NCBI GenBank assembly: GCA_040755005.1
Contig: JBFMBV010000004.1
Location: forward strand, 8,013 to 72,012
Source of the DNA: Bacillota bacterium
GTDB lineage: Bacteria; Bacillota; Sulfobacillia; JBFMBV01
DNA length: 64,000 bases
Direction of reading: 5' to 3'
Shown here one piece after another: positions 26,250 to 53,742 of this stretch. Below the pieces are notes generated by a model that saw nothing but the letters and a program-made list of their open reading frames with translations, had not been told where the DNA came from and ran no database searches. The position numbers were made by a program, and so were the translations under genes. Numbering within the stretch: position 1 is the first letter of the stretch; every line of letters begins with the position of its first letter.

Positions 26250-27140
26250 TCAGGCCCTGGGATGAGCCCTCCTGTATACGGCCCGCATGCGTTCCTGGGT
26301 CACATGGGCGTAGATCTGCGTGGTCGAGATGCTCACATGCCCGAGCAGTTCCTGCACGGATCTCAGGTCAGCCCCCGCATCCAGCAGATGGGTGGCGAAA
26401 GAGTGCCTGAGGGTGTGCGGGCTGACCTTCCTGGACCGCGCGGTCTGATCCAGGTACTTGTCGAGGATGCGCCGCACGCTCCTGTCCCGCAGCCGTGTGC
26501 CCCTGCTGTTGACGAACAGCGCCCGCTCGGGCCTCCCGGCCACCATGGAGGGCCGGGCCTCCCGCAAGTACCGGGCTAGGGCCCTGAGGGCGTAGCTCCC
26601 GACGGGCACCAGCCGCTCCTTCCGCCCCTTCCCGTAGGCGATGAGGAACCCCTCGTCGAGGGACACTGACCCTAAGTCCAGGCCTACCAGCTCGCCGACG
26701 CGGAGGCCGGCTGCATACAGCGTCTCCAGAAGGGCCGCGTCCCGCAGTCCGAGGGGGTGGCTGGGGTCGGGGGCGTCCAGCAGCGCTGCCACCTCTTCCA
26801 CATGGAGGAAGCCGGGCAAGCGGCGCCCCAGTTTGGGACCGGACACACTGGCCAGGGGATGCTCCGGCAGCCCGCCCTCCCGGCAGACAAACCGAAAGAA
26901 TGAGCGCAGGGTGGCCAGCTTCCGTGCCATGCTCCGCCGGGCGTAGCTTCGGGCTACCAGGTGGCCGAGGAAGCGGCGGGCAGTGAGGTGATCCACCCCG
27001 GCCAGATCCCTTCCGAGGCCTTCCCTGGCGCAAAAGCCAAAGAACTGCGACAGGTCACCGGCGTAGCTCCGCAGCGTGTGCTCGGAGGCGCCCTTTTCGA
27101 CCCTCAAGTAGTCTAGGAACGGCCCCAGCCAGTCTGACAC
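26250..27140 (-). CDS. xerC: tyrosine recombinase XerC (CodV-like)
   Basis: [23 protein letters not shown]... followed by the catalytic R..HxxR..Y block ([36 protein letters not shown]). The ORF-track start at 27446 overlaps topA by 170 nt. A GTG at 27138-27140 with GGAGG 6 nt upstream gives 296 aa. Confidence 0.85.
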
Positions 27141-27162
27141 AGCCAACCTCCGATCCAGACAC

Positions 27163-27191
27163 ATTGTACCACTGCCCGACTGCGGCTTCAA
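27163..27191 (-). promoter_or_regulatory. candidate sigma-A promoter for xerC-hslVU-codY
   Basis: Minus strand: TTGAAG (27186-27191), 17-nt spacer, extended -10 TGGTACAAT (-10 at 27163-27168). Lies in the 112-nt gap after topA. Confidence 0.4.
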
Positions 27192-27276
27192 TTCACAATT
27201 CTCAGAACATCGCGGCATCAGCGTCTCCGGGGGCGGCGTGAGCGCAGGCAAGCCCAGCTCCCGATGCCGACTGGGT

Positions 27277-29364
27277 TCAACCCGCCTCGGTCTCCATGCG
27301 GTGGCCGCACTCCTCCTTGGCGCAGACCAACACAGGACTCTGACCGCGGCGACGTTGTTCGAACATGACGGTTCCGCAGGCCGGGCACTCTCCGGCCGGC
27401 ACCTTCCACGACACGTAGTCGCACTCCGGGTATCGCACGCACCCATAGAACCTGCGTTTCTGTTTGGTCCGGCGCGCGGCCAGCTCCCCGCCGCAACGTG
27501 GGCAGCGTCCCGGGACGGTCTCGATCAGGGGTTTGGTGCTGCGGCACTCAGGGAAGCCTGGGCAGGCCAGGAACTTCCCGTAGCGTCCCCATTTCACCAC
27601 CATGTTCTGGCCGCACTTCTCACAGAGCACATCGCTGACTTCCTCGGCCACGGTGAGGGGACCGATGGCTTCCTCCGCCTTGGTCAGGGTGGCAACGAAC
27701 GGCGGGTAGAACTCACCCAGCACGTCGTGCCACCCCCGCGAACCTTCTTCGACCTCGTCCAGCCTGCGTTCCAGTTCTGCCGTGAACTCCACGTCCACTA
27801 CGTCCGCGAAATGCTCCGTGAGCAGGTCCGTCACCAGCGTGCCCAGCTCGGTGGGGACCAGGCGCCGCTGGGACTTGGAGGCATACCCGCGGGTGACGAT
27901 GGTGTCGATGGTCGGAGCGTATGTACTCGGACGTCCGATGCCCTGCTCTTCCAGGGCCCTGACCAGGGTCGCCTCGGTGTACCGGGGCGGGGCTTGGGTG
28001 AAGTGCTGCTTCGGCATGAGTTCTGCCAGGCGCACGGGCTCCCCCGGCACGAGCTCCGGCAGGTTGCCTTCGTCCTTGTCGGCGTCGGGTTCATCCTCAC
28101 CCACGGTGTACAGGGCAGTGAACCCAGCGAAACGTAACGTGGACCCGGAGGCCCGGAACAGGTGGCGGCCTGCGGCGATCTCCGCCGTGACCACATCGAA
28201 CAGGGCAGCCGCCATTTCGCTGGCCACGAAGCGCTCCCAGATGAGCCTGTACAGGCGGTACTGCTCTGAACTCAAGTACGGCTTCAGCGTTTCAGGTTCC
28301 CGCGACACTGCCGTGGGACGGATGGCCTCATGGGCCTCCTGAGCGCCCTTGGCCTTCACCGCCTCCCGGGGGCGCGCCGGCACGAACTTGGCCCCGAACC
28401 GGCCCTTGATGTACTTGCGCACCTCTTCCCTGGCTGGCGCCGCGATGCGGGTGGAGTCGGTGCGCATGTACGTGATGAGGCCGACAGCGCCGCCACCACC
28501 TACCTCAAGGCCTTCGTACAGCTGCTGGGCAATGGCCATGGTCCGTCGGACCGGGAACCCCAGCTTCCGAAAGGCTTCCTGCTGCATGGTCGAGGTGATG
28601 AACGCCGGTTCGGCTAAGCGGCGCCGCTCCTTAGACTTAACACTGACGACACTGAACGCGGCCCGCGCGATGGCGGCCTGCACTCTGTCCACGTCGGCGC
28701 CGGTCTTCAGCTCGACCTTGCGTCCAGCCTCGCCCCAATACTTGGCCGTGAACACCACCTCGTCGGAGCACCTGGCCAGCCGGGCTGTGAGCGACCAGTA
28801 CTCCTCAGGCACAAAGGCGTGGATCTGCCGTTCCCTGTCCACGATCAGCTTGAGGGCTACCGACTGCACCCGCCCGGCGCTCAAGCCCGGCCGCACCTTG
28901 CGCCACAGCAAGGGGCTCAGTTTGTACCCCACCACGCGGTCCAGGACCCTGCGGGCCTGCTGGGCGTCGACCAGGTTCATGTTGATGGGGCGGGGATGCT
29001 TCAGGGCCCCCTCGACCGCCTCTTTGGTGATCTCATGGAACTCGATGCGTACGGCGTTGGCGGGCAGGTTCAGGATGTCAGCCAGGTGCCAGGAGATCGC
29101 CTCTCCTTCCCGGTCAGGGTCTGTCGCCAGATACACCTTGCCCGCCTTCTTGGCGCTGTCCCTGAGCTGCTTGACGATGTCCCCTTTGCCCCTGATCGTG
29201 ATGTATTTCGGGGTGAATCCGTGCTCCACGTCGACCCCGAACTGGCTGCGGGGCAAGTCCCGGATATGGCCCATCGAAGCCTTGACCTGGCAACGCCGTC
29301 CCAGCAGGCGTTCCAGGGTCCTGGCCTTGGCGGGGGATTCCACGATGATCAGCGGTTTCGGCAC
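27277..29364 (-). CDS. topA: DNA topoisomerase I
   Basis: 695-aa ORF with the N-terminus [22 protein letters not shown], a Toprim domain, the catalytic core and C-terminal Zn-ribbon repeats (CPxCG). Confidence 0.95.
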
Positions 29365-34264: not shown

Positions 34265-35617
34265 CTACGCCAGCTCGATGTTGGCTTCGGGGACCATCAC
34301 CCGTTGGCCGTCCTCGAGTTCTAGTTCCACAGCCTTGAGCCTCGCCTCAGTCTCCATGGCCATAGGCTCAGTGGGCAAGCCGGTGACGGTGCCCCACAGG
34401 CCGAAGTACGGCTTGCGCACGACCCTCACCCGCATGCCGACCGCCAGCTGATGCTCGGCCTCCGGGGCCAGGGGGCCGGACTCGGACCCGTCGGCGCGCG
34501 GGATGATGAGCTCGGGCCTGACTACCCCTGCCCGCACCTGGGTCGCCCCGTTGATGGACACCACCGCTCCGTCATGTCTTTGCAGCAGGGCAAAAGTGGG
34601 GGCGGCCATCGGCATGGAACCGAAGCCTTCTGTGATCAACAGGGTCAGGTCCAGGTCCTCCTGGCCCGTGACGGCGACGCCGATGGGCTGACCGATGAGG
34701 TCGCTCAGGTCGGCCACGTCGGCCCCACCCGCGACCACCCCGACAGCTCCCACAGCCAGCGCCTTGCGGAGTGCAGCCAGCGGGACATGGCTGCCGCCAA
34801 CCAGCACCTTGCCGGCGTGGGCCTCGGTGACCATGCCGTCGGTGAGGGGCTCGCCTGGACCGCGGGCGACGACCGAAAGCAGGCCGTGGTGTTCGCCACC
34901 CAGGCCGAAGATGCCCTGGACGTACGCCCCCTTCGTCTCGATCACCGCACCGCGTTCAGGGATGAGGTCGGTGACTGTGCCGCCGATGTACGCATCAAGC
35001 ATCGTGGGACGGGCGGGGCGCACAACGGTCACCGTCCCTGACCGGGAACACACCTTCTCCACCAGGCCGCTGATGGGACTGTAGACATACTCCAGCGTCC
35101 CCAGGGCTGAGGGCATGGCGGCGACGACCCCGCCCTGCCTCACTTCGGCGCCCTCCCGGACCGTGAGGTACATCCTCAGGCTCCCTGGCCATACCTGGAG
35201 CTGCTTGGCTACGGGGATGATGGCCATGGGCAGGGCGGACCGGGGATCCTCGCGGATGAGCACGCGTCCGTATGCGCGGGAGATGAACTCGACTGTGCCG
35301 CTCACCGGGGACTTGACCACCAGCACGTCGGCGAAGGCCCCCTTGACCATGCGGGCGATGACCTCATGGGTCGTGACCCGGTCACCGACTCGCTTGAGCG
35401 CGGCCCGATCCACTTCCTCCGGCGTCAGGCGCTTGTGGAAACCGGCGTTCAGGTCGATCACATACGGCTCGCCCGGCAGCACTTCACTCTTGGCCACCAG
35501 GGTATCGGGGGAGACCTCCTGGCCTCGCTTGACCAGCACTTCGCCAGGCAGGGGCAGATATCGCTCCCGCCTGATCAGGACTCGTTCGCGGACTTCCGCC
35601 TCATGCCTCCTGACCAT
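34265..35617 (-). CDS. hypothetical 450-aa protein with repeated lipoyl/biotinyl-like (barrel-sandwich-hybrid) motifs, translationally coupled to the GlmL-like ATPase
   Basis: Start ATG overlaps the stop of the upstream gene (ATGA at 35617). Motifs LPGEVLVKRGQEVSPDTLVAKSE, VKSPVSGTVEFIS and YSPISGLVEKV resemble hybrid-barrel halves. No TM segment or signal peptide. I cannot name a family. Confidence 0.55.
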   Translation of the reverse strand: MVRRHEAEVRERVLIRRERYLPLPGEVLVKRGQEVSPDTLVAKSEVLPGEPYVIDLNAGFHKRLTPEEVDRAALKRVGDRVTTHEVIARMVKGAFADVLVVKSPVSGTVEFISRAYGRVLIREDPRSALPMAIIPVAKQLQVWPGSLRMYLTVREGAEVRQGGVVAAMPSALGTLEYVYSPISGLVEKVCSRSGTVTVVRPARPTMLDAYIGGTVTDLIPERGAVIETKGAYVQGIFGLGGEHHGLLSVVARGPGEPLTDGMVTEAHAGKVLVGGSHVPLAALRKALAVGAVGVVAGGADVADLSDLIGQPIGVAVTGQEDLDLTLLITEGFGSMPMAAPTFALLQRHDGAVVSINGATQVRAGVVRPELIIPRADGSESGPLAPEAEHQLAVGMRVRVVRKPYFGLWGTVTGLPTEPMAMETEARLKAVELELEDGQRVMVPEANIELA

Positions 35618-37434
35618 CAGGCCTCACCTCCCTTGCCGGAGACTGCCTCGGCCGGATAGGCCTCTAGGGCGGCCAACCAGCTTCTCACCTGCTGCAGCCT
35701 GCCCTCGCCCCTGCCCAGCGGCTTCAAGGGCCTGCCGCGGCCGTCGAGGACCAGCCCGATCTCGCCCCCCCTGGCCTTGCCCAGGCGGCGCCGACCTTTC
35801 CCCTCACCAGCGTCATAGCCCCGCCCCGGCAGGATCTCCACGCCGACTTCCTCTCCAGCCGGGCACGGGATGACTCTCAGGATGCCCGCCTCCACGGTTT
35901 CGCTGACGACCCTGCCCGAAGCGAAGGTCAGGAGGACCTTGGCAATGGCGCCGCGCTCCGCGGCCGGTCCGGCAGGGCAGATGCAGGTGCCCAGCGGCAC
36001 CAGGCAATCACCCTCAAAGGCCTCCAAGGCCGCGTCAGGGTCAGCTTCGGCTAGGGCACCCAGTTGAGGCAACATGAACACACTGTCCACGTACAGCTCG
36101 GTGATGCCCTCGGGTTCGATGGAGTCGATCAGGATTAGCGCCGCCTGGGACCGCCGCGGCGCATGGGACAGCACGCCGCCGGAGCCGATGATGATACCGA
36201 CCTCGTTCATGACTATCAGGCTCTGGCCAGTGGTCTCCTGGGCCAGGCCCGCGTCCAAGCTGCGCTTCTGCTTGACGCCTTTCAGCCCCGCCACCACTGA
36301 GCGGTGGTGGGCGATGGACAGCCGTAGTGCCTCGCGCGCCATGGCATGCTCCAACATGAGTTCTTCCAGGGTCTGCGGGAGCGTGGTGGGCCGGATCATC
36401 TTATTGCCTGTCCAGTTCTGCAGCTCCCAGACGGTGGTCTCAAAGGGAAGCCACTGGAGGACCCGTTCCGGCTTGGCTTCCACCATCACGTTGGCCATGC
36501 TGTATGACATGCCCAGGTTGGCGCTAACAGTACGGTTGAAGGTCCCGTCCATCACTGAGAACACATCGGTGGTGGCACCGCCGATGTCGACTCCCAGGAC
36601 ATTGCGGCCGCGCCTCTGGGACAACAGCTTCATCATGGACCCGACCGCAGTCGGGGTAGGCATGACCGTGTTCCTGCTCCAGTCGAGCAGCTCCCGGTAT
36701 CCGGGGGCGTGGGCCATGACGTGCTCGAGGAACAGCTTGTGGATCTCGGCCCGCGCCGGTTCCAGGTCCTCTCGCTCCAGGGTGGGGCGGATGTTGTCCA
36801 CCATCCGTACGTCCATGGTCTCGCTGAGGATGTCGCTCACGTAGTCGCGGGCGTTCACGTTGCCAGCATAGATGACCGGCACCTTGAAGCCTGTCCCGAA
36901 CCGCGGCTGCGGGTGGGCAGCCTGGACGTACTCGGCCACTGCCAGCACATGCGAGGTGTTGCCGTGATCGGTCCCACCCGCCAGCAGGATCATGTCAGGC
37001 CGGAACTCCTTGAGTCTGCGGATGCGCTCCACGACCAACCGGGCATCATCGATGCTGATGACGTCCATGACGATGGCCCCCGCCCCCAGCGCTGCCCGGT
37101 TGGCGCTCTCAGCGGTCATGGTCTTGATCACCCCCGCCACCGCCATCTGCAGCCCGCCGCCGGCGCTCGACGTGGCCACAAACAGGTCAACGCCGGCGCC
37201 GTCCCGGTCAGTGGTGAGCAACCGGTCGTTGTCGAGCAACCTCAGCCCAGTGGTTGCCTCGACTTGGCGCACAGCGTTGCGGACTCCGACCATCACGTCT
37301 TCTGACGGTGCCTCGACCGTGGTCGGGGCCTGCCCGCGGGCGATCAGACCGAACTTCCCGTCCTTCACCCCGAGCAGGATCGCCTTAGAAGTCGTGCTGC
37401 CGACATCAATGGCCAGAACAGTGCGGGGCCGCAT
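35617..37434 (-). CDS. GlmL/MutL-family (glutamate-mutase-L / EutA-like) ASKHA-fold ATPase with a C-terminal Gly/Arg-rich extension
   Basis: 605-aa ORF. N-terminus MRPRTVLAIDVGSTTSKAILLG...TTVEAPSEDVMVGVRNA has the L.IDFGST.TK...TTVE..D...G pattern of GlmL-family proteins, and a second nucleotide-binding loop (GVDIGGATTDVFSV) is present. About 140 extra C-terminal residues have no match. SD GGGGG before the ATG. Confidence 0.65.
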   Translation of the reverse strand: MRPRTVLAIDVGSTTSKAILLGVKDGKFGLIARGQAPTTVEAPSEDVMVGVRNAVRQVEATTGLRLLDNDRLLTTDRDGAGVDLFVATSSAGGGLQMAVAGVIKTMTAESANRAALGAGAIVMDVISIDDARLVVERIRRLKEFRPDMILLAGGTDHGNTSHVLAVAEYVQAAHPQPRFGTGFKVPVIYAGNVNARDYVSDILSETMDVRMVDNIRPTLEREDLEPARAEIHKLFLEHVMAHAPGYRELLDWSRNTVMPTPTAVGSMMKLLSQRRGRNVLGVDIGGATTDVFSVMDGTFNRTVSANLGMSYSMANVMVEAKPERVLQWLPFETTVWELQNWTGNKMIRPTTLPQTLEELMLEHAMAREALRLSIAHHRSVVAGLKGVKQKRSLDAGLAQETTGQSLIVMNEVGIIIGSGGVLSHAPRRSQAALILIDSIEPEGITELYVDSVFMLPQLGALAEADPDAALEAFEGDCLVPLGTCICPAGPAAERGAIAKVLLTFASGRVVSETVEAGILRVIPCPAGEEVGVEILPGRGYDAGEGKGRRRLGKARGGEIGLVLDGRGRPLKPLGRGEGRLQQVRSWLAALEAYPAEAVSGKGGEA

Positions 37435-37509: not shown

Positions 37510-38706
37510 TCAGCTATCGCCGGCCAGCTTGCGGACGGCTGCAGTCAGCGCGGGTATCACTTCGAACAGGTCGCCGACGATGCCGTAGGTGGCAGCCTTG
37601 AAGATGGGCGCGTCCGGATTCTTGTTGATGGCGACGATGATGTCTGAGGACTGCATCCCAGCCAGGTGCTGCACCGCCCCGGAAATGCCACAGGCGATGT
37701 ACACCTTCGGACCCACCGTCTTGCCGGTCTGGCCCACCTGATGTGAATAGGGTATCCAACCTGCGTCCACCGCCGCCCTTGACGCCCCGACAGCGCCCCG
37801 CAGGGCCCTCGCCAGCTCACCGATGAGGGCGAAGTGCTTCGGGTCGGCTAGCCCGCGGCCCCCCGACACGATCACGTCGGCCTCCTCGAGCTTCACCGAG
37901 TCCCCGCCCTCTTCGACTGCCTGCATCAGGCGGGTACGGGCAGGCCTGATGGCCTCGCCGCAGTCCACGGCCTCGATGTCCCCCCGGCGCCCTGAGTCGG
38001 CGGGAGCCCGCTTCATCACCCTCGGCCGCACCGTGGCCATCTGCGGCCGCATACGCGGGCACAGGATGGTTGCCATGATGTTGCCCCCGAACGCCGGGCG
38101 CGTCTGGCGGAGCAGGCCGGTATCGACCTCCACGTCCAGTCCGGTGCAATCGGCGGTCAGGCCGGTCCCCAGGCGCACGGCCAGCCGCGGGGCAAGGGAC
38201 CGTCCCACCGATGTGGCCCCGAACAAGAGGATGTTGGGCTTGCGCGCCCGCACCAGATGGAACAGGGCGTCCGTATAAGGTTCATCGAGGAAGTGGGCCA
38301 GGGCAGGGTGCTCGGCTACCAACACCCTGTCGGCCCCATGCTGGACCAAGTCCTGCGGGCCGTCCCCTAGGCCGTGGCCGGCCACGACTGCGACAAGTTC
38401 CTGGCCCAGCTTGTCCGCCAGAACCCGGCCGGCCCCCAAAAGCTCATAGCTGACTCCGGCCACACGGCCGTCCCTCTGTTCAGCGTAAACCCACACCCCG
38501 TTGGCCTCCTGGGCGGCCTCGGCGCGCTTCTCCACCGTAAGCTCGATGGCCTCCAGCGGGCAGCCGTCAACGCAGGCCCCACATAGGGTACAGGTGGGTC
38601 CGATGGTGCACTTGCCCTCGACCATGCTCAGGGCGCCGTAGGGGCAGGCGCTGAGGCAAGCCTCACAGCCTTCACACTTAGCTAAGACGATCCTGATGCC
38701 TTCCAT
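37510..38706 (-). CDS. etfA: electron transfer flavoprotein alpha subunit with an N-terminal 2x[4Fe-4S] ferredoxin domain
   Basis: 398-aa ORF. N-terminus carries [12 protein letters not shown] and [12 protein letters not shown] (two CxxCxxCxxxCP motifs), followed by the EtfA core ([17 protein letters not shown]...[12 protein letters not shown]). Confidence 0.9.
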
Positions 38707-38723: not shown

Positions 38724-39509
38724 TTAGACCGCCCCGGCGCGGCGGAGCCGCTCCAGCAGCCCCTCAGCTTGTTCCAGGGCACTGCCTGCCAGCAGTTCAC
38801 AGTCGCCTCTAAGTTCTGGGGTGAACACCCGTACGACCTCGGTGGCCGACCCCTTCAGCCCCACCCGCTCCGGGTCCACCCCGAGCTCGGTGGCCCCCCA
38901 CACCGTCACCGGCGCAGTGCGCGAACGCATCAGCCCTCTGAGGGTCGGGAGGCGGGGCTCGTTGATCTCCTTCACCACGGTGATCAGTGCCGGCAGGGGC
39001 AGCTCCAGTACGTCGTACCCGTACTCGGTCATGCGGTGCACCTGGATGCTGCCTTCGCCCACCTCGGCAACGCGTTTGACATAGGAAGCGTGGGGGATGT
39101 CCAGGAGCTCCGCAATGCCTGGGCCCACCTGGGCCGTATCTCCGTCGATGGCTTGCTTCCCGCAGATGATTAGGTCCGCCCCGCCCAACTTACTTACAGC
39201 TGCGGCCAGTGCGTACGAAGTGGCGAGGGTGTCTGCGCCAGCGAAGGCCCGGTCGCTAAGGAGCACCGCTTCATTGCAGCCCATGGCTAGCGCTTCCCGG
39301 AGCGCCGACTCCACTTGCGGCGGTCCCATGCTCAGGACGGTCACCGTCCCGCCGAGGCGCCCGGTGAGGCGGATACCTTCCTCCAGGGCGTACATGTCGA
39401 AGGGGTTGATGATGCTGGGGACCCCTTCGCGGATGAGCGTGTTCGTGTCTTTGTCCAACTTGACATCGGTGGTGTCCGGGACTTGCTTGATGCACACGAC
39501 GATCCTCAT
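38724..39509 (-). CDS. etfB: electron transfer flavoprotein beta subunit
   Basis: MRIVVCIKQVPDTTDVKLD... is the EtfB N-terminus. The ORF-track start is a TTG at 39515. The ATG at 39507-39509 is preceded by SD GGAGGAGG, which lies in the 18-nt gap after the SBP stop. Confidence 0.9.
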   Translation of the reverse strand: MRIVVCIKQVPDTTDVKLDKDTNTLIREGVPSIINPFDMYALEEGIRLTGRLGGTVTVLSMGPPQVESALREALAMGCNEAVLLSDRAFAGADTLATSYALAAAVSKLGGADLIICGKQAIDGDTAQVGPGIAELLDIPHASYVKRVAEVGEGSIQVHRMTEYGYDVLELPLPALITVVKEINEPRLPTLRGLMRSRTAPVTVWGATELGVDPERVGLKGSATEVVRVFTPELRGDCELLAGSALEQAEGLLERLRRAGAV

Positions 39510-39533
39510 TGGCAACGGTCGCCTCCTCCACTA

Positions 39534-41105
39534 TCAGAAACGGTGTGCGTCGTGCAGGTACAACCGCCCACCCGTACCGACGCCCACGCCTTTTACGGCT
39601 TGGTGGAACACCGCCCGTTCCACCAGCGTGAACAGGGGCAGCCAAGGTACGTCCATGGCCAGCAGTCGCTGGACTTCGGCGGCCACAGCCCGCCTGTCCG
39701 CCGGTGCAGCCGCCACAGTGGACACCTCCAGTAGGAGGTCAAGCCTGGCGTCGACATAGCCCGTGCGGTTCATCCGGCCCACCCTGGACGAGTGGAAGAA
39801 GTAGAACAGCACATCGGGCCCATCCCAGGCGTAATTCAGCAGTGCCGCATCGTAGACGCCATCTGCGGTGGCGCTCAGCACCTGATCCAGGGGGCGCACC
39901 CGCACGTCTACCTTGACCCCTACCTGGGCCAGCTGGCGGGCCACTTCAGCCGCGGCCCGCTCGCTCTCGGGCAGTGCTGGCACGAGCAGGGTCAGCGCGA
40001 GGGGCACGTTGTCCCGTTGCCTGACGCCTGTACCCCCGCCCCTGACGAACCCCGCCGCCTCCAACGCAGCCTCTGCCTTGGTGGATCCGGGCAGCGGCAA
40101 GGCGCCGACGGCCTCCTTGGCATGCCCGTATACTCCGGGCGGCAGGCTGGAGCGGCTGGGGGCCAGCCGCGGGTTGCCTCCCGCCGCGGCCACTGCTACG
40201 GGGTCGATGGCCTGGGCCAGCGCCCTGCGCAGGTCCACGTTGTCCCAAGGGGCACGGCGGACGTTGAAGGCCAGGTAGAAAAGGGTAGGTTCGAAGTACT
40301 CGAACACCCGGTGGTTGCGGCTGTCCCCTGCTGCTGCGCCGGAGGCGACCGCGTCGATCCTGCCGTTGGCGAGGGCTTCCCTGAGTTCGTCCCCGCCGGG
40401 GAACGGCTCGAAGCTGACCTGGTCAAGGTAAGCGCGGCCACGGTTGCGGTAGAAGGCGGGGGGCCACGCGTACTCAGCGTTGACGGCCAGTTCAACCCTG
40501 CCCGCGGGGGACGTGCTCACGACCCGGTAGGGGCCGGTCCCCGTGGGAGCCTTCCAAAAATCGTCACCGAGCTGCTTGGCTTGGGTTGGGGACACGATGG
40601 CGCCTGCGGGCGAGGCCAGGGCTTCCCAGATGGGCGGGTAGGGGCGCTCGAAGGTCAGGGTGACTGTCAGCCGGTCCACGGCCACTACTTCCTTGAGGGT
40701 GCCGAACCTGGCCGCGAGTCCGGAACCGCCCGCGACCGTCCGATCCAGGCTGAACTTGACCGCCTCGGCGTCACACGGGGTCCCGTCATGGAACTTCACC
40801 CCGTCACGCAACACGAACGTCAGCCTACGCCCGTCGTCCTGCAGCGACCATGATGTCGCCAGCGCGGGGACGTACTCCCCGGCAGGATCTAAGGTGACCA
40901 GGTTGTCGAACACCAACTGCCTGGGCCAGTCGAGCCCTTCAGCCAGGAGTGGGTCCAGCCTCACCGCCGGACCGATGTACCCGATGGCCAGCGCCCCGCC
41001 GGGCTTCGGCAGGGCCAGTCGACGGCAACCCCCGCCAGCGGCCGCGCCGAGGGTGGCCAGCAGGCAGACGATGATGGCGGCTCGTACTGGCCGCGAGTGT
41101 AACAA
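39534..41105 (-). CDS. ABC transporter substrate-binding lipoprotein, family 5 (DppA/OppA/NikA-like), orphan
   Basis: 523-aa ORF with lipoprotein signal LLATLGAAAGGGC and family-5 motifs (LTFVLRDGVKFHDGTPCDAEAVKFSLDR, GTGPYRVV). No permease or ATPase genes are adjacent. Confidence 0.85.
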   Translation of the reverse strand: MLHSRPVRAAIIVCLLATLGAAAGGGCRRLALPKPGGALAIGYIGPAVRLDPLLAEGLDWPRQLVFDNLVTLDPAGEYVPALATSWSLQDDGRRLTFVLRDGVKFHDGTPCDAEAVKFSLDRTVAGGSGLAARFGTLKEVVAVDRLTVTLTFERPYPPIWEALASPAGAIVSPTQAKQLGDDFWKAPTGTGPYRVVSTSPAGRVELAVNAEYAWPPAFYRNRGRAYLDQVSFEPFPGGDELREALANGRIDAVASGAAAGDSRNHRVFEYFEPTLFYLAFNVRRAPWDNVDLRRALAQAIDPVAVAAAGGNPRLAPSRSSLPPGVYGHAKEAVGALPLPGSTKAEAALEAAGFVRGGGTGVRQRDNVPLALTLLVPALPESERAAAEVARQLAQVGVKVDVRVRPLDQVLSATADGVYDAALLNYAWDGPDVLFYFFHSSRVGRMNRTGYVDARLDLLLEVSTVAAAPADRRAVAAEVQRLLAMDVPWLPLFTLVERAVFHQAVKGVGVGTGGRLYLHDAHRF

Positions 41106-43687: not shown

Positions 43688-43909
43688 ATGGGAGGTTACG
43701 CTACGCTCGTGGAGGTGGTCCCACTGCCACGGAAGCGTTTACGGCTGATGTCCGAAGCACTCAAGCGCGCCTTGGCCCAGGAGATGGGGGTCGCCGTCGT
43801 CGTAGACAGGGAAGGCTGGGGAAGCGTCTCCGCCCGTGAGTGCGGGCGGCTGGTGCAACGGGCGATGATCCGCGCCCAGGAAGCCTTGGCGAGGAACCGA
43901 GGGACCTAA
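43688..43909 (+). CDS. possible small ORF (about 52-74 aa) in the divergent intergenic region, function unknown
   Basis: In-frame ATGs at 43688 and 43748. High GC3 throughout (...MSEALKRALAQEMGVAVVVDREGWGSVSARECGRLVQRAMIRAQEALARNRGT). Followed 23 nt later by a strong hairpin. No homology recognised. Confidence 0.2.
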   Translation: MGGYATLVEVVPLPRKRLRLMSEALKRALAQEMGVAVVVDREGWGSVSARECGRLVQRAMIRAQEALARNRGT

Positions 43910-43932
43910 GCAGCTGCGCCTGACCACTGACC

Positions 43933-43966
43933 GGGCGGAGCCCCCAGCGGCGTGAGGGCTCCGCCC
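43933..43966 (+). other. strong GC-rich inverted repeat in the comM/ABC-operon divergent region
   Basis: GGGCGGAGCCC-(12 nt)-GGGCUCCGCCC, a perfect 11-bp stem, followed on the plus strand by AGGCUUUGG. Terminator of the putative small ORF or a protein-binding palindrome. Confidence 0.35.
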
Positions 43967-44097
43967 AGGCTTTGGCGCAGACTGGCCCGATTGCCATATT
44001 CTTAGTCCAGCAGCAGGAGATGCCTGCGGAGAGAGAGAATGCCTCCTTCCCAGACCTCGGGTTGAGGGGGTGAGGGGTCGCCCCGGGGCCGCACTTT

Positions 44098-44121
44098 CTG
44101 CGGGAATCAACCCACCCGCAG
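44098..44121 (+). promoter_or_regulatory. inverted repeat just upstream of the ABC-operon RBS
   Basis: CTGCGGG-AATCAACCCA-CCCGCAG (7-bp arms) lies 13 nt before SD GAGGAGGGG and the GTG start at 44150. Confidence 0.25.
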
Positions 44122-44149: not shown

Positions 44150-45259
44150 GTGAAATTGTGCGTTCGTCTGATGTGCCTGCTGCTTCTGGTCAGCCTAGTG
44201 GCCTCGATCGGGGGCTGCAAGCCGGACCCGAAGACCCTGAAGGTCGGACTTGTCACCGGCACTGTCTCACAGGGTGAGGACGAGTACAGACAGGCAGAGC
44301 GGCTCAAGGCCAAGTTCGCCGACAGGCTGATCCACGTAACTTATCCGGACAACTTCATGGCAGAGCAGGAGACTACGATCACCCGCATCACGGGCCTCGC
44401 CGCTGATAAGGCTGTCAAAGTTATCGTCATCTGTCAGGGTGTGCCCGGCACCCTTGCGGCCATCGACAAGATTCGTCAGACCCGCAAGGACATCACGTTC
44501 ATCGTCGGCGTACCCCATGAGGATCCCAAGATGGTCGCCTCCAAGGTCGACTACGCCTTCAGCACGGACGATGTGACACGGGGCAAGAGCATCGTCCAGC
44601 TGGCCAAGCAGCTCGGCGCCAAGAAGTTCCTCCACTACTCCTTCCCGCGCCACATGGGCATGGAGTTCCTGGCTAACCGCCGCAACAACATGGAAGCTGA
44701 GTGCAAGGCCCTCGGGCTCGAGTTCATCTTCGTGACCGCCCCCGACCCGATGGGCCCGGACGGCCTCCCCGGCACCCAGAAGTTCATCCTGGAAGATGTG
44801 CCCCGGCAGGTCGCCCAGCATGGCAAAGACATCGCTGTCTTCGGCACCAACTGCGGCATGCAGGAGCCGCTGATCCGCGCCTGCCTAGATGCTGGCGCGA
44901 TCTTCCCGGAGCAGTGCTGCCCGAGCCCAACCCACGGTTACCCCAGCGCCCTGGCGATCGATGTCAAGGGCATGGCGGGTAACATCAAGGCCATCCTGGC
45001 CGCCATCGACGCCAAAATCGTCGAAGAAGGCGGCGCTGGCCGCTTCGCGACCTGGGCTGTCCCCATCAACATGCTGCTCATCGAGGCCGGCACGGAGTTG
45101 GCCTACGACATCATCGCTACCGGCAAAAAGCCGACCGAGGCCGACATCAAGGCGAAGCTGCAGGCCCTGTCAGGCCTGTCGCCCCAGATGCGCAAGTACT
45201 CACCCGAGTCCAACTTCTATCTCCTGATCGTCGGCTCCCACATCTTCGGCAAGAAGTAG
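44150..45259 (+). CDS. ABC transporter substrate-binding lipoprotein (periplasmic-binding-protein type I fold; sugar/nucleoside-type system)
   Basis: 369-aa ORF with GTG start 7 nt after GAGGAGGGG. Lipoprotein signal LLLVSLVASIGGC. KVGLVTGTVSQGEDEY... resembles PBP type I sugar/BMP-like binding proteins; it might be a DUF3798-type lipoprotein, but this is uncertain. First gene of an SBP-ATPase-permease-permease operon. Confidence 0.75.
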   Translation: MKLCVRLMCLLLLVSLVASIGGCKPDPKTLKVGLVTGTVSQGEDEYRQAERLKAKFADRLIHVTYPDNFMAEQETTITRITGLAADKAVKVIVICQGVPGTLAAIDKIRQTRKDITFIVGVPHEDPKMVASKVDYAFSTDDVTRGKSIVQLAKQLGAKKFLHYSFPRHMGMEFLANRRNNMEAECKALGLEFIFVTAPDPMGPDGLPGTQKFILEDVPRQVAQHGKDIAVFGTNCGMQEPLIRACLDAGAIFPEQCCPSPTHGYPSALAIDVKGMAGNIKAILAAIDAKIVEEGGAGRFATWAVPINMLLIEAGTELAYDIIATGKKPTEADIKAKLQALSGLSPQMRKYSPESNFYLLIVGSHIFGKK

Positions 45260-45329
45260 CCGCCTGAAAAGGGGCCGTCCGTGCGGGCGGCCCCTTTCCC
45301 ACGTGATAAGGATGTGATGAGACCTGTCT

Positions 45330-46904
45330 GTGCTCACCATGCGCGGCATCACCAAGGAGTTCGGCGGCGTGTCGGCCCTGAAGAACGTCGACTTGACGGT
45401 GGAGGCAGGCCAGATCCATGCCCTGTTGGGCGAGAACGGCGCGGGCAAGACCACCCTGCTGAACATCCTCTTCGGGATGCCGGTCATCCGCGCCACCGGC
45501 GGTTATCGGGGCACGATCAGCATACACGGGGTGCCCTTCTCCCCCAAAGACCCCTCCGAGGCCCTGGCCGCCGGGATCGGCATGGTCCACCAGGAGTTCA
45601 TGCTCATCCCCGGCTTCACCGTCGCCGAGAACGTCAAGCTGAACCGCGAACCCTTGCGCCACGCTTCCCTGGGCCGCGTGCATCCTTCGCTGCACATCCT
45701 TGACCGGCCCGCCATGGCTGCCGACACCCGCCAGGCCTTCACTTCCATCGGGGTCAACGTGGACGACTGGATGATGGTGGCAGGGCTGCCTGTCGGCCAC
45801 AAGCAGTTCGTGGAGATCGCCCGGGAGGTGGACAAGCACGGCACCAAGCTGCTCATCCTCGACGAACCCACGGCCGTGCTCACTGAAGTCGAGGCGGCCC
45901 AACTCATCGAAGCCCTTCGGCGCCTGGCGGCCAGGGGCTTGGGCATCCTCTTCATCACCCACCGCCTGGATGAAGTCTTGGCATGCGCGTCGCAGATCAG
46001 CGTGCTCCGGGACGGGGAACTGGTCGCCTGCCTGCCGGCCGCTGAAGCCTCCTTGCGTCAGCTGGCGGAAGTGATGGTGGGAAGGCCGGTGGAACGTCAG
46101 CCCATGCCCCCTAGGGGAACCGTCACCGGTGCTTCGTTGCGGTTCGAGGGGTTCAGCGTGGAGATGCCGGGAGAGCGCGTCACGGGACTGGACCTTGAGG
46201 TGCAGGCTGGGGAGATCCTGGGCATCGGCGGGCTGGCTGGCCACGGTAAGCTCGGAATCGCCAACGGCGTGATGGGGCTCTACCCAGCGAGGGGCCAAGT
46301 CAGCTTCGACGGTGAGCCCTTCCGCCTCGGCCAGCCCATCGAGGCGCTGTCCCGCCGCATCGCCTTCCTCTCGGAAGACCGCCGCGGCGTGGGGCTGCTC
46401 CTCGATGCCCCCATCGACTATAACCTCGCCTTTACATCCATGAATATCGAAGGCAGGTTCCTCAAGCGGCCGCTAGGTGTGCCCTGGCTGACCTGGCGCG
46501 ACAGCCGGGGCATGCGCACCCACGCGGAAGCCCTCATCTCCCAGCTGGACATCCGCTGCACCGGACCGGATCAGGCCGTCCGCCGCCTCAGCGGGGGGAA
46601 CCAGCAGAAGGTCTGCATCGGCCGGGCCATCACCCGGCAACCGAGGCTGCTCTTCGCCTCGGAACCCACCCGTGGCATCGATGTAGGCGCCAAGTCCCTC
46701 ATTCTGGACCTCCTGGCCAGGCTCAACCGCGAGGCCGGGGTCACCATCGTGATAACCTCAAGCGAGTTGGCTGAGCTTAGGCGCATCTGCGACCGCATCG
46801 CCATCATCTACCGTGGGCGCTTAGCCCGTGTGCTTCCCCCTGATGCCAGCGACGCCGACTTCGGTCTGGCCATGGCCGGGCGACCGCCGGGAGGTGACCT
46901 ATGA
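45330..46904 (+). CDS. ABC transporter ATP-binding protein with two fused NBDs (RbsA/MglA/XylG-like, CUT2-type)
   Basis: 524-aa ORF. First NBD has Walker A GENGAGKTT and a second NBD follows (LSGGNQQKVCIGRA..., Walker B LLFASEPTRGIDVGA). The start may instead be the Met at about 45339. Confidence 0.9.
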   Translation: MLTMRGITKEFGGVSALKNVDLTVEAGQIHALLGENGAGKTTLLNILFGMPVIRATGGYRGTISIHGVPFSPKDPSEALAAGIGMVHQEFMLIPGFTVAENVKLNREPLRHASLGRVHPSLHILDRPAMAADTRQAFTSIGVNVDDWMMVAGLPVGHKQFVEIAREVDKHGTKLLILDEPTAVLTEVEAAQLIEALRRLAARGLGILFITHRLDEVLACASQISVLRDGELVACLPAAEASLRQLAEVMVGRPVERQPMPPRGTVTGASLRFEGFSVEMPGERVTGLDLEVQAGEILGIGGLAGHGKLGIANGVMGLYPARGQVSFDGEPFRLGQPIEALSRRIAFLSEDRRGVGLLLDAPIDYNLAFTSMNIEGRFLKRPLGVPWLTWRDSRGMRTHAEALISQLDIRCTGPDQAVRRLSGGNQQKVCIGRAITRQPRLLFASEPTRGIDVGAKSLILDLLARLNREAGVTIVITSSELAELRRICDRIAIIYRGRLARVLPPDASDADFGLAMAGRPPGGDL

Positions 46905-47941
46905 ACCCCCGCCTGCTCAAACCTTCACCCCGCACCGTACCCCGGCTGATCATCGGCGCCTTCGTCCTCGGGCTGCTGGTACTGGCGGCCGGTAAGCAGC
47001 TGCCTGTGCACCTATTGATCAGCGACTCCCTCGTCCGTACCGGGATGAACGGCATCCTCGTCCTGGCAATGGTACCATCGATCCAGGCAGGGCTAGGGCT
47101 GAACTTCGGCCTGCCGGTTGGCATCATCTGCGGCCTGATCGGAGTGCTTATCGCCGTCGAAGCTAACGTCTCCGGGCTGGCAGGGCTGGCCCTGTCGGTG
47201 GCGGCGGCTGTGCCTCTGGCCCTGTTGGCGGGGTCCGTCTACGGTCGCCTGCTCAACCGGGTGAAAGGCCAGGAGATGATGGTCGGGACTTACCTTGGCT
47301 TCGCAGTGGTCTCCGGGATGTGCGTCTTCTGGTTGATCGCCCCCTTCACCAACCCCATCCTGATCTGGGTCATCGGTGGGACGGGGCTGCGTTACACCAC
47401 ATCCCTGCGCCACCTCTTTGGTGGCGTGCTCGACAACGCCTGGGCCTTCAGCCTCTGGGGGGTGAAGGTGCCCACGGGCCTGCTGTTGACGTTCCTGCTG
47501 GCTTGCCTGTTGGTCCACTGCCACTCCCGTACCCGGGGAGGAATGGCGATGCACGCCGCTGGTCAGAACCCGGCCTTCGCCACCGCTAGCGGCGTCAACA
47601 CCGCCAAGGCCAGGATCCAGGGGGCCACGCTGTCCACGCTGCTGGGCGCGATTGGCATCATCATCTACGCGCAGAGCTTCGGGTTCCTGCAACTCTATCT
47701 GGCCCCACTGATGATGGCTTTCCCGGCGGTGGCGGCGGTGCTCATCGGCGGCGCCTCCACCCGGCAGGTCACCGTGGGCAACGTCATCATTGGGACCTTG
47801 CTCTTCCAGACGCTGCTCACCATCTCGCTGCCCGTGGCGCAAGCTGTCATCGGCAGTGACGTCACCGAGGTGATCCGGTTGATCGTCGCCAACGGGACGA
47901 TACTCTACGCCCTGACCAGGCTGGACGGAGGCGGCCAATGA
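46901..47941 (+). CDS. ABC transporter permease (BPD_transp_2, RbsC-like)
   Basis: 346-aa polytopic membrane protein. Overlaps the ATPase stop (ATGA). Paralogous to the next gene (shared ...PSIQAGLGLNFGLPVG... versus ...IPVQAGLGLNFGIVLG...). Confidence 0.85.
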   Translation: MNPRLLKPSPRTVPRLIIGAFVLGLLVLAAGKQLPVHLLISDSLVRTGMNGILVLAMVPSIQAGLGLNFGLPVGIICGLIGVLIAVEANVSGLAGLALSVAAAVPLALLAGSVYGRLLNRVKGQEMMVGTYLGFAVVSGMCVFWLIAPFTNPILIWVIGGTGLRYTTSLRHLFGGVLDNAWAFSLWGVKVPTGLLLTFLLACLLVHCHSRTRGGMAMHAAGQNPAFATASGVNTAKARIQGATLSTLLGAIGIIIYAQSFGFLQLYLAPLMMAFPAVAAVLIGGASTRQVTVGNVIIGTLLFQTLLTISLPVAQAVIGSDVTEVIRLIVANGTILYALTRLDGGGQ

Positions 47942-49014
47942 GGGCGCCCGCGGCCCTGCGCCGCAGCACCAATCCAGGCGCCTGGTCGAAACTGGCCATG
48001 GAAAACCCAGTGCCCGTCCTCTTCCTCGCCCTGTGCCTCGCCGGCGTGCTGGTGGCGGGCATGCATCCCGTCTTCCTCATCAACGAGATGATCGGCCGCA
48101 TGGCCCGCAACTCGTTCCTGGTCCTGTCGCTGATCATTCCGGTCCAGGCTGGGCTCGGGCTCAACTTCGGCATCGTACTGGGCGCCATGTCCGCACAGGC
48201 AGCTCTGGCAGCAGTCACCCACTGGCAGCTCCCTGGACTCTTCGGCCTCTCCCTGACGGCGCTCCTCGCCGTCCCCATCGCCGTTGCCCTTGGAGCCTTC
48301 GCCGGGCAAGTGCTCAACGGCGCGCGCGGGCGGGAGATGATCGCCAGCATGATCCTGGGCTTCTTCATGAACGGCGTGTACCAACTGGTCTTCTTGTTCA
48401 TGGTCGGCACGGTCATCCCCGTGCAGAACCCGGTGATGCTCCTGCCCCAGGGCTTCGGGCTGCGCAACACCTTCGAGCTAACCTCATTCAAGTACTCCTT
48501 GGACAACCTGTTGTTCGTAGCCCCGGGGGGCATCGCCATCCCCCTGGCCACCCTGGCGGTGGTGACCGGCCTGTGTCTGGCCATGCGCTGGCTGTTCAAC
48601 ACCAAACTCGGTCAGGACCTCAGGGCGGTCGGTTCCGAAGAGCATGTGGCCGCCGTGGCCGGGCTGAAGACCAACCGGCTGCGCATCACCGCCGTCATCT
48701 TCTCCACCGTGCTCGCCGCCTGGGGTCAGATCATCTTCCTCCAGAACATCGGCACGGTGAACACCTACAACTCCCACGACCAGACCGGCATGTTCGCCAT
48801 CGCCGCCCTGCTGGTGGGCGGCGCCACCGTGAGGCGGGCCACCGTGGGCCAAGCCCTGCTGGGCACGTTCCTCTTCCACCTGCTGTTCATCGTCTCCCCC
48901 TTCGCCGGCCAGCGCCTGCTGGGAAGCCCCCAGGTGGGTGAATACTTCCGGGTGTTCATCGCCTACGGCATCATCTGCATCGCCCTCGGCCTGCACTCCT
49001 GGCGCAGGCGCTAG
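47938..49014 (+). CDS. ABC transporter permease (BPD_transp_2, second subunit)
   Basis: 358-aa polytopic membrane protein with a 4-nt overlap with the upstream permease gene. Confidence 0.85.
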   Translation: MRAPAALRRSTNPGAWSKLAMENPVPVLFLALCLAGVLVAGMHPVFLINEMIGRMARNSFLVLSLIIPVQAGLGLNFGIVLGAMSAQAALAAVTHWQLPGLFGLSLTALLAVPIAVALGAFAGQVLNGARGREMIASMILGFFMNGVYQLVFLFMVGTVIPVQNPVMLLPQGFGLRNTFELTSFKYSLDNLLFVAPGGIAIPLATLAVVTGLCLAMRWLFNTKLGQDLRAVGSEEHVAAVAGLKTNRLRITAVIFSTVLAAWGQIIFLQNIGTVNTYNSHDQTGMFAIAALLVGGATVRRATVGQALLGTFLFHLLFIVSPFAGQRLLGSPQVGEYFRVFIAYGIICIALGLHSWRRR

Positions 49015-52847: not shown

Positions 52848-53356
52848 TCCTCGGGCGGCTTGATCACCATCACGCCCCGTTCAGGGGCCAGTTCCAGCAC
52901 TATGTCCCTGATGGCCGGCACCAGCCGTTCACTCCGTTCACTGCCAGGCCCTTGAACCACGAACACGTCATTGGCGGGCCGCTTCAGCACCTCGGTGACC
53001 GTGCCTAGCGGCCGGCCATCAGGGGTCTCCACCCTAAGGCCGATGAGCCGAAAGGTATAGTGATGGCCTGCCGGCAGCGGGGTCAAGCTGGCCTCGTCGA
53101 CGCACACCTCGGCGCCGCATAACGACTCGGCCGCAGTGCGGTCCTCGATGCCTTCCAGCGCAACTAGATGGACCGGGCCGTGCCTCCGCCCGCGCAGCAC
53201 GCGCGCTGGACGCGTCCCCTCCTTGAGCCGCAGGAACACAGAGTGCGGCCGTTCGAAGCGCTCCGGAAAGTCGGTCACGGGCTGCACCCTGACCTCACCC
53301 GCTACCCCGTGGGAACCAGCGATCACCCCGACGACTATCAGACGGCCTGTCAACAT
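52835..53356 (-). CDS. rimM: 16S rRNA processing protein RimM
   Basis: 173-aa ORF with the [12 protein letters not shown]-terminal barrel and a PRC barrel. Conserved position before trmD. Confidence 0.9.
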
Positions 53357-53730: not shown

Positions 53731-53742
53731 GCCCTCACCTCG

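What the first reader, a model, noticed from the sequence alone, without database searches (positions are those of the whole stretch)
34265..35617. 450-aa partner protein with lipoyl-like hybrid-barrel motifs and no assignable family
The ORF is translationally coupled (ATGA) to the GlmL-like ATPase and has good coding statistics. Yet I can only recognise generic barrel-sandwich-hybrid half-motifs, as found in biotinyl/lipoyl domains, RnfC and HlyD-like adaptors: LPGEVLVKRGQEVSPDTLVAKSE, VKSPVSGTVEFIS, YSPISGLVEKV. It also has Gly-rich stretches (GAVGVVAGGADVADLSDLIGQPIGVAVTGQ). It has no membrane anchor.

In B12-mutase systems the reactivase is often a two-subunit complex, so this may be the unrecognised second subunit of a novel reactivase-like machine.
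Basis: partly seen in the sequence, partly recalled or inferred. Interest (0 to 1): 0.55.

Follow-up and report, generated by a model that had tools for sequence, protein, structure and literature searches.

The report
Unknown partner of GlmL-like ATPase
This 450-residue protein belongs to a large, unstudied family that is the dedicated partner of a misnamed "glutamate mutase L" ATPase found across bacteria and archaea, and the pair usually sits beside unknown membrane proteins rather than beside any vitamin-B12 enzyme.

Summary
The ORF is real but lies on the minus strand (34265-35617). Its start overlaps the stop of the 605-aa GlmL-like gene as TGATG, with a strong Shine-Dalgarno site upstream.

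Pfam and NCBIfam have no full-length family for it. A confident AlphaFold model shows two lipoyl-like barrel-sandwich-hybrid domains, a central swivelling beta/beta/alpha domain and a C-terminal KOW/SH3-like domain. No Lys, His, Cys or Asp is conserved, which argues against lipoyl/biotinyl or phospho-histidine carrier chemistry.

The family is large: 3,689 cluster representatives and at least 594 species across many bacterial phyla and archaea. The long-form (~600 aa) GlmL-like ATPase lies directly upstream in 59 of 84 testable copies. At least three diverged contigs encode the two as one fused polypeptide, so the two proteins almost certainly work as one unit.

The B12-reactivase reading lacks context support. 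No B12 enzyme occurs in the 64-kb window and none recurs across about 95 related loci. The recurrent neighbours are four uncharacterised membrane proteins (one is DUF6754) and two small proteins.

The ATPase-partner reading is supported; the B12 link is not. The function is unknown, and the most likely role is as part of an ATP-driven module serving a membrane complex.

The parts
34265..35617 (-). T: the 450-aa partner protein (the finding), including its stop codon
   Evidence: ORF list and translation. 616 homologues and 3,689 representative clusters. AlphaFold model with mean pLDDT 87.9.
35243..35593 (-). Barrel-sandwich-hybrid domain 1 (about aa 9-125), lipoyl/RnfC_N/NqrA_N-like, with no modifiable Lys
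35018..35242 (-). Barrel-sandwich-hybrid domain 2 (about aa 126-200)
   Evidence: Pfam DUF2118 at aa 147-191. Propionyl-CoA carboxylase biotinyl-domain and GcvH matches. No conserved Lys.
35093..35329 (-). About 79-aa insertion (aa 97-175) that separates the 450-aa form from the commoner 375-aa form and turns one hybrid barrel into two
   Evidence: Alignment A1: the 375-aa homologues are gapped across these columns. Length classes.
34493..35011 (-). Central swivelling beta/beta/alpha domain (about aa 203-375). It carries nearly all invariant polar residues: GIFGxGxE, ITGQE, TEGFG and NGATQ[IV]RAGxxRPE
34268..34441 (-). C-terminal KOW/SH3-like domain (about aa 393-450), with conserved R398, G406, E424, N446 and E448
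35624..35632 (-). Shine-Dalgarno GGGAGGTGA for T, lying inside the 3' end of the G gene. The G stop and T start overlap as TGATG at 35617
   Evidence: Sequence read directly.
35617..37434 (-). G: the 605-aa long-form GlmL-family ASKHA ATPase, the partner of T
35620..36009 (-). C-terminal extension of G (about aa 476-605: a beta-rich domain plus a helix). It lies beyond the end of the NCBIfam GlmL model and sits next to T in the fusion proteins
   Evidence: The GlmL model (459 positions) aligns only to aa 6-472. Strands 478-564 and helix 577-589. Invariant D564, R566, G567, R568 and W586. Junction of the fusions.

Best explanation
T is the dedicated partner subunit of a long-form GlmL-family ASKHA ATPase (G).

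Shown:
- The two genes are co-translated here.
- They are adjacent in most genomes that have them, and fused into one chain in some.
- T is built of two lipoyl-like hybrid barrels without a modifiable Lys, a swivelling beta/beta/alpha domain without a phospho-His, and a KOW/SH3-like domain.
- Almost all invariant residues of T lie in the swivelling domain.

Inferred:
- T carries no covalent cofactor. It acts as the mobile adaptor or effector half of a G-T complex.
- ATP binding and hydrolysis in G repositions T's swivelling domain, as swivelling domains move in PEP-utilising enzymes and in the reactivase subunit DdrA. The hybrid barrels and the KOW domain serve as docking modules.
- The usual client is a membrane complex of four uncharacterised proteins (DUF6754 plus three others) with two small accessory proteins. 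This set is encoded beside G-T in about two thirds of well-flanked loci.
- In the lineage of this window, G-T is encoded alone in a housekeeping region, so the client is elsewhere in the genome or different.

The pair is probably not a B12-mutase reactivase.
For: Gene reality and coupling.

No conserved K, H, C or D in 48 diverse homologues. The invariant T317, E320, E330, N356, T359, R362 and R367 all lie in the central domain.

Pairing: G is directly upstream in 59 of 84 copies and within 3 kb in 7 more.

Fusions: P0281 is a 995-aa G::T fusion. P0391, P0392 and P0393 span the same junction at 48-53% identity. L094 and L095 show uninterrupted reading frames across G, a short linker and T.

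G carries the invariant ASKHA nucleotide-binding motifs and a C-terminal extension that lies beyond the NCBIfam GlmL model.

Membrane link: 35 of 80 species loci hold at least one of the four membrane genes. Of 27 loci with G beside T and at least 5 kb on both sides, 18 hold them. All three fusion contigs are followed directly by DUF6754 and its companions.

Breadth: at least 594 species and 3,689 cluster representatives, in bacteria and archaea. T is absent from plasmids and phages.
Against: - No biochemical or genetic data exist for any member. Full-text searches found nothing.
- A physical G-T complex is inferred from genomics only. I could not co-fold the two proteins or inspect an interface.
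- The window itself, and its closest relatives (L001, L087-L090), have none of the membrane genes within 8-30 kb.
- 18 of 84 T copies (Poribacteria, WOR-3, some Armatimonadota) have no G within 4-8 kb. In L093, G and T are 7.6 kb apart on opposite strands.
- The strictly conserved polar loops of the swivelling domain could equally be a catalytic or ligand-binding site rather than a protein interface.
Confidence: 0.5

Rival explanations
1. One reading: G-T is a two-subunit reactivase (chaperone) for an adenosylcobalamin-dependent mutase, analogous to DdrAB or GdrAB. On this reading T plays the role of the missing second subunit or supplies a DdrA-like swivelling domain in trans.
Confidence: 0.12
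2. Phosphotransfer module. G acts as a kinase and phosphorylates the exposed NGATQ loop of T's swivelling domain (invariant T359), or a ligand bound there. T then carries the phosphoryl group to a client, as in PEP-utilising enzymes but with Thr in place of His.
For: The best structural matches of the central domain are phospho-histidine swivelling domains: rifampin phosphotransferase, Enzyme I and the pyruvate kinase C-terminal domain. The NGATQ[IV]RAG loop is invariant and partly low-confidence in the model (residues 361-363 have pLDDT below 50), as a mobile loop would be. From established knowledge, ASKHA proteins include many kinases. By my reading, the motif resembles the GGxTSHAA motif of PEP-utilisers.
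Against: No His is conserved anywhere in T. There is no sequence-level match to PEP-utiliser domains in Pfam or the PDB. The motif correspondence was never checked by a residue-level structural alignment. No protein-kinase member of the GlmL/hydantoinase branch is known to me.
Confidence: 0.1
3. NqrA/RnfC-like peripheral subunit of a membrane redox complex, perhaps fed by the adjacent EtfAB.
Against: T has no conserved Cys or His, so no Fe-S site, and no flavin or NAD motif. EtfAB is absent from the related locus L089 and from all other loci. The membrane proteins show no Rnf/Nqr Pfam match.
Confidence: 0.05
4. Lipoyl- or biotinyl-carrier protein, or a NusG-like transcription factor, as some automatic annotations of homologues say ('glycine cleavage system H', 'NusG').
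For: JGI names for P0007 and P0106. Weak lipoyl/biotinyl and Spt5 KOW profile matches.
Against: No Lys is conserved at either hairpin tip. The NGN domain of NusG has no counterpart: only the KOW part and T. maritima NusG domain II match.
Confidence: 0.02

Closest known systems
GlmL/MutL of glutamate mutase operons and Or-4 of the ornithine aminomutase operon (Pfam PF13941; NCBIfam NF040745, NF040744)
   Same: The partner G is a clear homologue at family level (E=6e-122), with the same ASKHA core and inserted domain.
   Different: Classical GlmL is about 460 aa, sits between GlmS and GlmE, and has no T-like partner (PMC4682846). G is about 600 aa and has a C-terminal beta-rich extension. It fails all curated equivalog cut-offs, is not linked to any mutase, and is paired or fused with T.
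Diol/glycerol dehydratase reactivase DdrAB/GdrAB (PDB 2d0o)
   Different: In DdrA the swivelling domain is part of the ATPase chain, whereas here it is on a separate protein that also carries hybrid barrels and a KOW domain. T is not DdrB-like. No dehydratase or other B12 enzyme is nearby. DdrA is not among G's best structural matches.
Phospho-histidine swivelling domains of PEP-utilising enzymes (Enzyme I, PEP synthase/rifampin phosphotransferase, PPDK) and the RraA-like and aconitase X swivel domains
   Different: No conserved His and no detectable sequence similarity. The domain context is different.
NqrA and RnfC N-terminal barrel-sandwich-hybrid domains; lipoyl/biotinyl domains
   Same: The N-terminal hybrid-barrel fold and weak profile matches. 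Like T, NqrA and RnfC are peripheral subunits of membrane complexes.
   Different: No modified Lys, no Fe-S or flavin sites, and the downstream domains are unrelated.

Membership tests
Lipoyl/biotinyl attachment domain (PF00364) | Barrel-sandwich-hybrid fold | tested here: met
Lipoyl/biotinyl attachment domain (PF00364) | Conserved Lys at the hairpin tip that receives lipoate or biotin | tested here: not met
   No Lys is conserved at either hairpin (aa 84-104 and 160-184): at most 20 of 48 sequences in any column, none at the aligned tip positions. No column in the whole protein has Lys in 90% or more of sequences.
B12-enzyme reactivase (GlmL/Or-4 type or DdrAB type), second subunit | The partner ATPase meets the curated GlmL or Or-4 family thresholds | tested here: not met
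   NF040745 245.8 bits against a cut-off of 475. NF040744 228.7 against 600. TIGR01319 188.1 against 204.05. Only the broad Pfam MutL model is passed.
B12-enzyme reactivase (GlmL/Or-4 type or DdrAB type), second subunit | Genomic linkage to an adenosylcobalamin-dependent mutase, aminomutase, dehydratase or lyase | tested here: not met
   None is encoded in the 64-kb window. None is among the recurrent neighbour clusters of 80 species loci or the annotated loci L081-L095.
B12-enzyme reactivase (GlmL/Or-4 type or DdrAB type), second subunit | ATP-dependent release or exchange of damaged cobalamin from the target enzyme | not testable with these tools
   This needs biochemistry.
B12-enzyme reactivase (DdrAB type) | Swivelling domain associated with the ASKHA ATPase | tested here: met
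PEP-utilising enzyme mobile domain (PF00391) | Swivelling beta/beta/alpha fold | tested here: met
PEP-utilising enzyme mobile domain (PF00391) | Catalytic phospho-histidine (T-S-H motif) and a sequence match to the family model | tested here: not met
   No His is conserved. No Pfam hit. No PDB sequence match for the domain profile.
NqrA / RnfC | N-terminal hybrid barrel followed by the NqrA Rossmann/SLBB domains or the RnfC NuoF-like and 2x[4Fe-4S] domains, encoded in an nqr/rnf operon | tested here: not met
   Only the N-terminal barrel matches (RnfC_N 26.5 bits, NQRA_N 19 bits against a cut-off of 25). The rest of T is a swivel domain plus a KOW domain. No Cys is conserved. No nqr/rnf genes are nearby.
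NusG/Spt5 | NGN domain plus KOW domain | tested here: not met
   The KOW domain is present. No NGN domain was detected in Pfam or by fold search.

The most novel reading that the evidence does not exclude
G-T, together with DUF6754, three further membrane proteins and two small proteins, forms a previously unrecognised ATP-driven membrane machine (for transport, or for handling membrane components). It would be powered by an actin-fold (ASKHA) ATPase rather than an ABC, P-type or AAA+ motor, and it is conserved from Bacillota to Bathyarchaeia. T would be the coupling subunit that transmits the ATPase cycle to the membrane part through its swivelling domain.
Probability: 0.35. Interest if true: 0.85.

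Novelty: categorically new. Interest (0 to 1): 0.62.

Why it matters
Thousands of genomes from many bacterial phyla and from archaea carry this pair. Public annotation calls one half "glutamate mutase L" and the other half "hypothetical protein".

The evidence here says the name is probably wrong for this long-form subfamily. The ATPase has an obligatory partner with a new domain architecture, and its usual companions are four membrane proteins that nobody has studied. Six of the eight gene families in the cluster have no Pfam family match at all, and a seventh (c3) matches only a domain of unknown function, DUF6754.

If the pair serves that membrane complex, it would define a new class of ATP-driven membrane system. 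If instead it reactivates B12 enzymes in trans, it would be the first two-component GlmL-type reactivase and would explain how unlinked mutases are maintained.

Either way, the gene set is now defined well enough to test directly: co-expression, cryo-EM, and knock-outs in a cultivable carrier such as Symbiobacterium thermophilum.

Tried and rejected
- Foldseek against AFDB50 was not available on the machine.
- Co-folding G with T was not attempted.
- A sequence-profile search of the PDB with the swivelling domain alone gave nothing significant (best E=0.007, a TIM-barrel segment, judged spurious).
- Profiles of the membrane proteins c3 and c6 against the PDB gave nothing.
- c3 against c6 by hhalign gave probability 0.4%, so they are not detectably related.
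- Pfam scans of all c4 and c5 members at E<=1 gave only scattered noise.
- PADLOC defence models gave no hit. Plasmid and phage collections gave no hit.
- Six literature searches (GlmL, DUF6754, PF13941, TIGR01319, DUF2118, ASKHA/EutA/swiveling) gave nothing on this family.
- The promoter/terminator scan around the operon gave no signal above shuffled background.
- HMMs of the neighbour families c2-c7 and c9 found nothing in the window.
- I first thought hslV was truncated and xerC missing downstream of topA. This was an artefact of my own ORF caller: both genes are intact.
- Whether the window pair is orthologous to pair 1 or pair 2 of the double-pair Bacillota loci could not be settled from identities alone.

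Full report
Labels used throughout: T is the 450-aa protein of the finding. G is the 605-aa GlmL-like ATPase encoded upstream of it. c2 to c9 are the recurrent neighbour gene clusters found in related loci.

**Observation**

The ORF is real but lies on the minus strand, at 34265-35617 (450 aa, ATG start). G occupies 35617-37434 on the same strand.

Its TGA stop and T's ATG share one base (TGATG). A GGGAGGTGA Shine-Dalgarno site lies 6 nt upstream of the ATG. GC3 is 0.83, like the flanking genes.

G matches Pfam MutL/GlmL at E=6e-122. T gives only marginal hybrid-barrel hits in Pfam (RnfC_N 26.5 bits, DUF2118, NQRA_N) and nothing in NCBIfam or PADLOC.

**What the protein is made of**

A profile search of PDB sequences sees only the lipoyl/biotinyl, NqrA and Spt5 KOW similarities. 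The central domain alone has no sequence-level relative.

The family comes in two lengths. The commoner 375-aa form has one hybrid barrel. The 450-aa form found here has a roughly 79-residue insertion (aa 97-175) that makes a second barrel.

No column of the alignment conserves Lys, His, Cys or Asp. The barrels are therefore not lipoylated or biotinylated, the swivelling domain is not a phospho-histidine carrier, and there is no metal-cluster site.

The invariant polar residues are T317, E320, E330, N356, T359, R362 and R367. Their motifs are ITGQE, TEGFG and NGATQ[IV]RAGxxRPE, and all lie in the swivelling domain. Part of the NGATQ loop (residues 361-363) has pLDDT below 50.

**The partner**

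G is 100% identical to an NCBI metagenome-assembled-genome (MAG) protein named 'glutamate mutase L [Bacillota bacterium]'. Even so, it scores below every curated NCBIfam cut-off: GlmL 246 against 475, Or-4 229 against 600, and TIGR01319 188 against 204.

Its model (pLDDT 86.4, pTM 0.86) has three parts:

- An inserted flavodoxin-like domain. It matches flavodoxins, CheY-type receivers and B12-binding domains about equally well.
- A beta-rich C-terminal extension (aa 476-605). This lies beyond the 459-position GlmL model.

Among the invariant residues are DxGST, DIGGATTD and GSGG, which I read as the ASKHA nucleotide-binding motifs. The extension also has invariant residues: D564, R566, G567, R568 and W586. 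All close homologues are about 600 aa long and 52-63% identical across phyla.

**Is the pairing conserved?**

Yes. A scan of one genome per species found at least 594 species with a T homologue. The lineages include Bacillota (including Symbiobacterium thermophilum), Chloroflexota, Armatimonadota, Poribacteria, WOR-3, Cloacimonadota, Eisenbacteria, Zixibacteria, Marinimicrobia, Planctomycetota, and Bathyarchaeia and other Thermoproteota. An exhaustive HMM search gave 3,689 representative clusters at E<=1e-3 and 1,210 at E<=1e-30.

Of 84 T copies with enough upstream sequence to judge:

- 59 have G directly upstream on the same strand.
- 7 have G within 3 kb.
- 18 have none within 4-8 kb. These are mostly Poribacteria, WOR-3 and some Armatimonadota.

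In L093, G and T are 7.6 kb apart on opposite strands. The two genes can therefore be unlinked within one genome.

The strongest evidence is a set of gene fusions. P0281 is a 995-aa G::T fusion. A query spanning its junction recovered P0391, P0392 and P0393 at 48-53% identity with 98-100% coverage. Contigs L094 and L095 come from different samples. Both show uninterrupted reading frames running through G's C-terminal half, a linker of about 20 low-complexity residues, and T. The fusion is therefore recurrent and has persisted through substantial sequence divergence.

Some Bacillota carry two tandem paralogous pairs, one with a 450-aa T and one with a 375-aa T.

**Genomic context**

The window is the classical Firmicutes housekeeping stretch. 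On the minus strand it reads comM, a peptidoglycan-binding protein, SBP_bac_5, etfB, etfA, G, T, two MsbA-like ABC exporters, dprA, topA, xerC, hslVU, codY, rpsB and onwards. No B12-dependent enzyme is encoded anywhere in the 64 kb.

In the closest relatives the same synteny holds, but EtfAB and the ABC genes come and go (L087 against L089). They are therefore not part of the unit.

Across 80 species-level loci the recurrent neighbours are the following:

- c3: Pfam DUF6754, about 3 transmembrane helices plus a soluble domain that is probably cytoplasmic.
- c5: about 6 transmembrane helices.
- c6: N- and C-terminal transmembrane helices around a large domain.
- c4: about 5 transmembrane helices.
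- c7: 2 transmembrane helices.
- c2: about 120 aa, with no hydrophobic segment.

Typical gene orders are c7-c2-G-T-c3-c5-c6-c4 and c3-c5-c6-c4-c7-c2-G-T. In Bacillota the order is c7-c3-c5-c6-c4-G1-T1(450)-c2-G2-T2(375).

At least one of c3-c6 is present in 35 of 80 loci. Among the 27 loci with G beside T and at least 5 kb on both sides, 18 have them. All three fusion contigs continue directly into DUF6754 and its companions.

None of these families has a PDB or Pfam relative beyond DUF6754. None is present in the window. No paper in the searchable library mentions these families.

**How it most likely works**

Shown: T and G are co-translated here, adjacent in most genomes, and fused in some. 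T has docking-type domains (hybrid barrels and KOW) and a swivelling domain that concentrates the invariant residues. G carries the invariant ASKHA nucleotide-binding motifs and a subfamily-specific C-terminal extension. That extension abuts T in the fusions.

Inferred: G and T form a complex in which the ATPase cycle of G repositions T's swivelling domain. The complex then acts on a client. In most lineages the client is the c3-c6 membrane complex, and the probably cytoplasmic domain of DUF6754 is a plausible docking site. In the window's lineage the client is either encoded elsewhere or is different.

I put about 0.85 on 'obligate partner of G'. I put about 0.5 on the whole statement including the membrane client.

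**Rival explanations**

G belongs to the GlmL family. ASKHA plus a swivelling domain recalls DdrA. G's inserted domain resembles B12-binding domains, among others. Against it: no linkage to any B12 enzyme in the window or among the recurrent neighbours of about 95 related loci. The curated GlmL thresholds are failed. Genuine glutamate mutase clusters (GlmS-GlmL-GlmE-Mal; PMC4682846) have no T-like gene. The recurrent neighbours are membrane proteins. I give it 0.12.
- *Phosphotransfer through T359.* Compatible with the fold matches, but it lacks any sequence support. I give it 0.10.
- *NqrA/RnfC-like redox subunit.* Contradicted by the absence of cofactor-binding residues and by the non-conserved EtfAB neighbourhood. 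I give it 0.05.
- *Lipoyl/biotinyl carrier or NusG-like factor.* Contradicted by the residue conservation and by the missing NGN domain. I give it 0.02.

**Comparison with known families, and novelty**

T is not a member of any described family, and it failed every membership test that involved a defining functional residue or context. G is a homologue of GlmL, but it falls outside the curated GlmL and Or-4 models.

The pair resembles DdrAB only in combining an ASKHA ATPase with a swivelling domain. The eight-gene neighbourhood has no characterised counterpart. I therefore rate the system as categorically new, with two caveats. It is assembled from known folds, and its function is inferred only from genomics.

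**Verdict**

This is a real, widespread and uncharacterised partner protein. 'B12-mutase reactivase' is not. Interest is 0.62.

Noticed in passing
window 35617-37434 (-): G is 100% identical to an NCBI MAG protein named 'glutamate mutase L', yet it fails the NCBIfam GlmL, Or-4 and TIGR01319 cut-offs and has no mutase nearby. The name is probably propagated wrongly to the whole long-form (~600 aa) subfamily.
   Followed up: partly
related loci, e.g. L045 9073-12441, L027 9186-12686, L094 2330-6069: A conserved set of four uncharacterised membrane-protein genes lies beside G-T in 35 of 80 species loci: c3 (DUF6754), c5, c6 and c4. Two small genes, c2 and c7, accompany them. None has a PDB or Pfam relative beyond DUF6754, and none is in the window.
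   Followed up: partly
L091 2029-5016; L094 3-2336; L095 2-1600: Natural G::T fusion proteins, joined by a low-complexity linker of about 20 residues. They occur in at least three diverged contigs from different samples, each followed by DUF6754 and its companions.
   Followed up: yes
L002/L081 (Ca. Fermentithermobacillus carboniphilus CP062796), L003, L008, L009 (Symbiobacterium thermophilum MAG), L071: Some Bacillota carry two tandem paralogous pairs: G1-T1 (450-aa form), then c2, then G2-T2 (375-aa form). The window has only one pair, with the 450-aa form.
   Followed up: partly
L012, L014, L025, L033, L038, L045, L051, L057, L093: The glycine cleavage genes (gcvT, gcvH, gcvPA and/or gcvPB, not all four in every locus) lie directly upstream, on the same strand as c7-c2-G-T, in 8 of 80 loci plus L093. 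T has lipoyl-like barrels without the Lys. It is unclear whether this is shared ancestry of the synteny or a functional link.
   Followed up: partly
window 37510-38706 (-) and 38724-39515 (-): EtfA carries an N-terminal 2x[4Fe-4S] ferredoxin domain, and EtfB lies next to it. Their best NCBIfam hits are the acryloyl-CoA reductase electron-transfer subunits. They sit 76 nt upstream of G. No acyl-CoA dehydrogenase is adjacent here, although one is in the relative L087. EtfAB is absent from L089.
   Followed up: partly
window 39534-41105 (-): An SBP_bac_5 peptide/nickel-type solute-binding protein lies upstream of G-T in the window, in L087 and in L089, with no cognate permease genes beside it. 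It is the only flanking gene conserved with the pair in this clade.
   Followed up: no
window 26256-29364 (-): trmFO, which lies between topA and xerC in the relatives L087 and L089, is missing here. xerC (about 26256-27128) directly follows topA. An apparent hslV truncation was an artefact of my own ORF calling.
   Followed up: yes
window 44150-49014 (+): A plus-strand operon encodes a DUF3798 binding protein, a duplicated ABC ATPase and two BPD_transp_2 permeases. It is inserted between yraN and comM in an otherwise minus-strand housekeeping block.
   Followed up: no
window 43739-44110 (-) and 53168-53746 (+): Two ORFs (123 aa with GC3 0.63; 192 aa) have no Pfam match.
   Followed up: no
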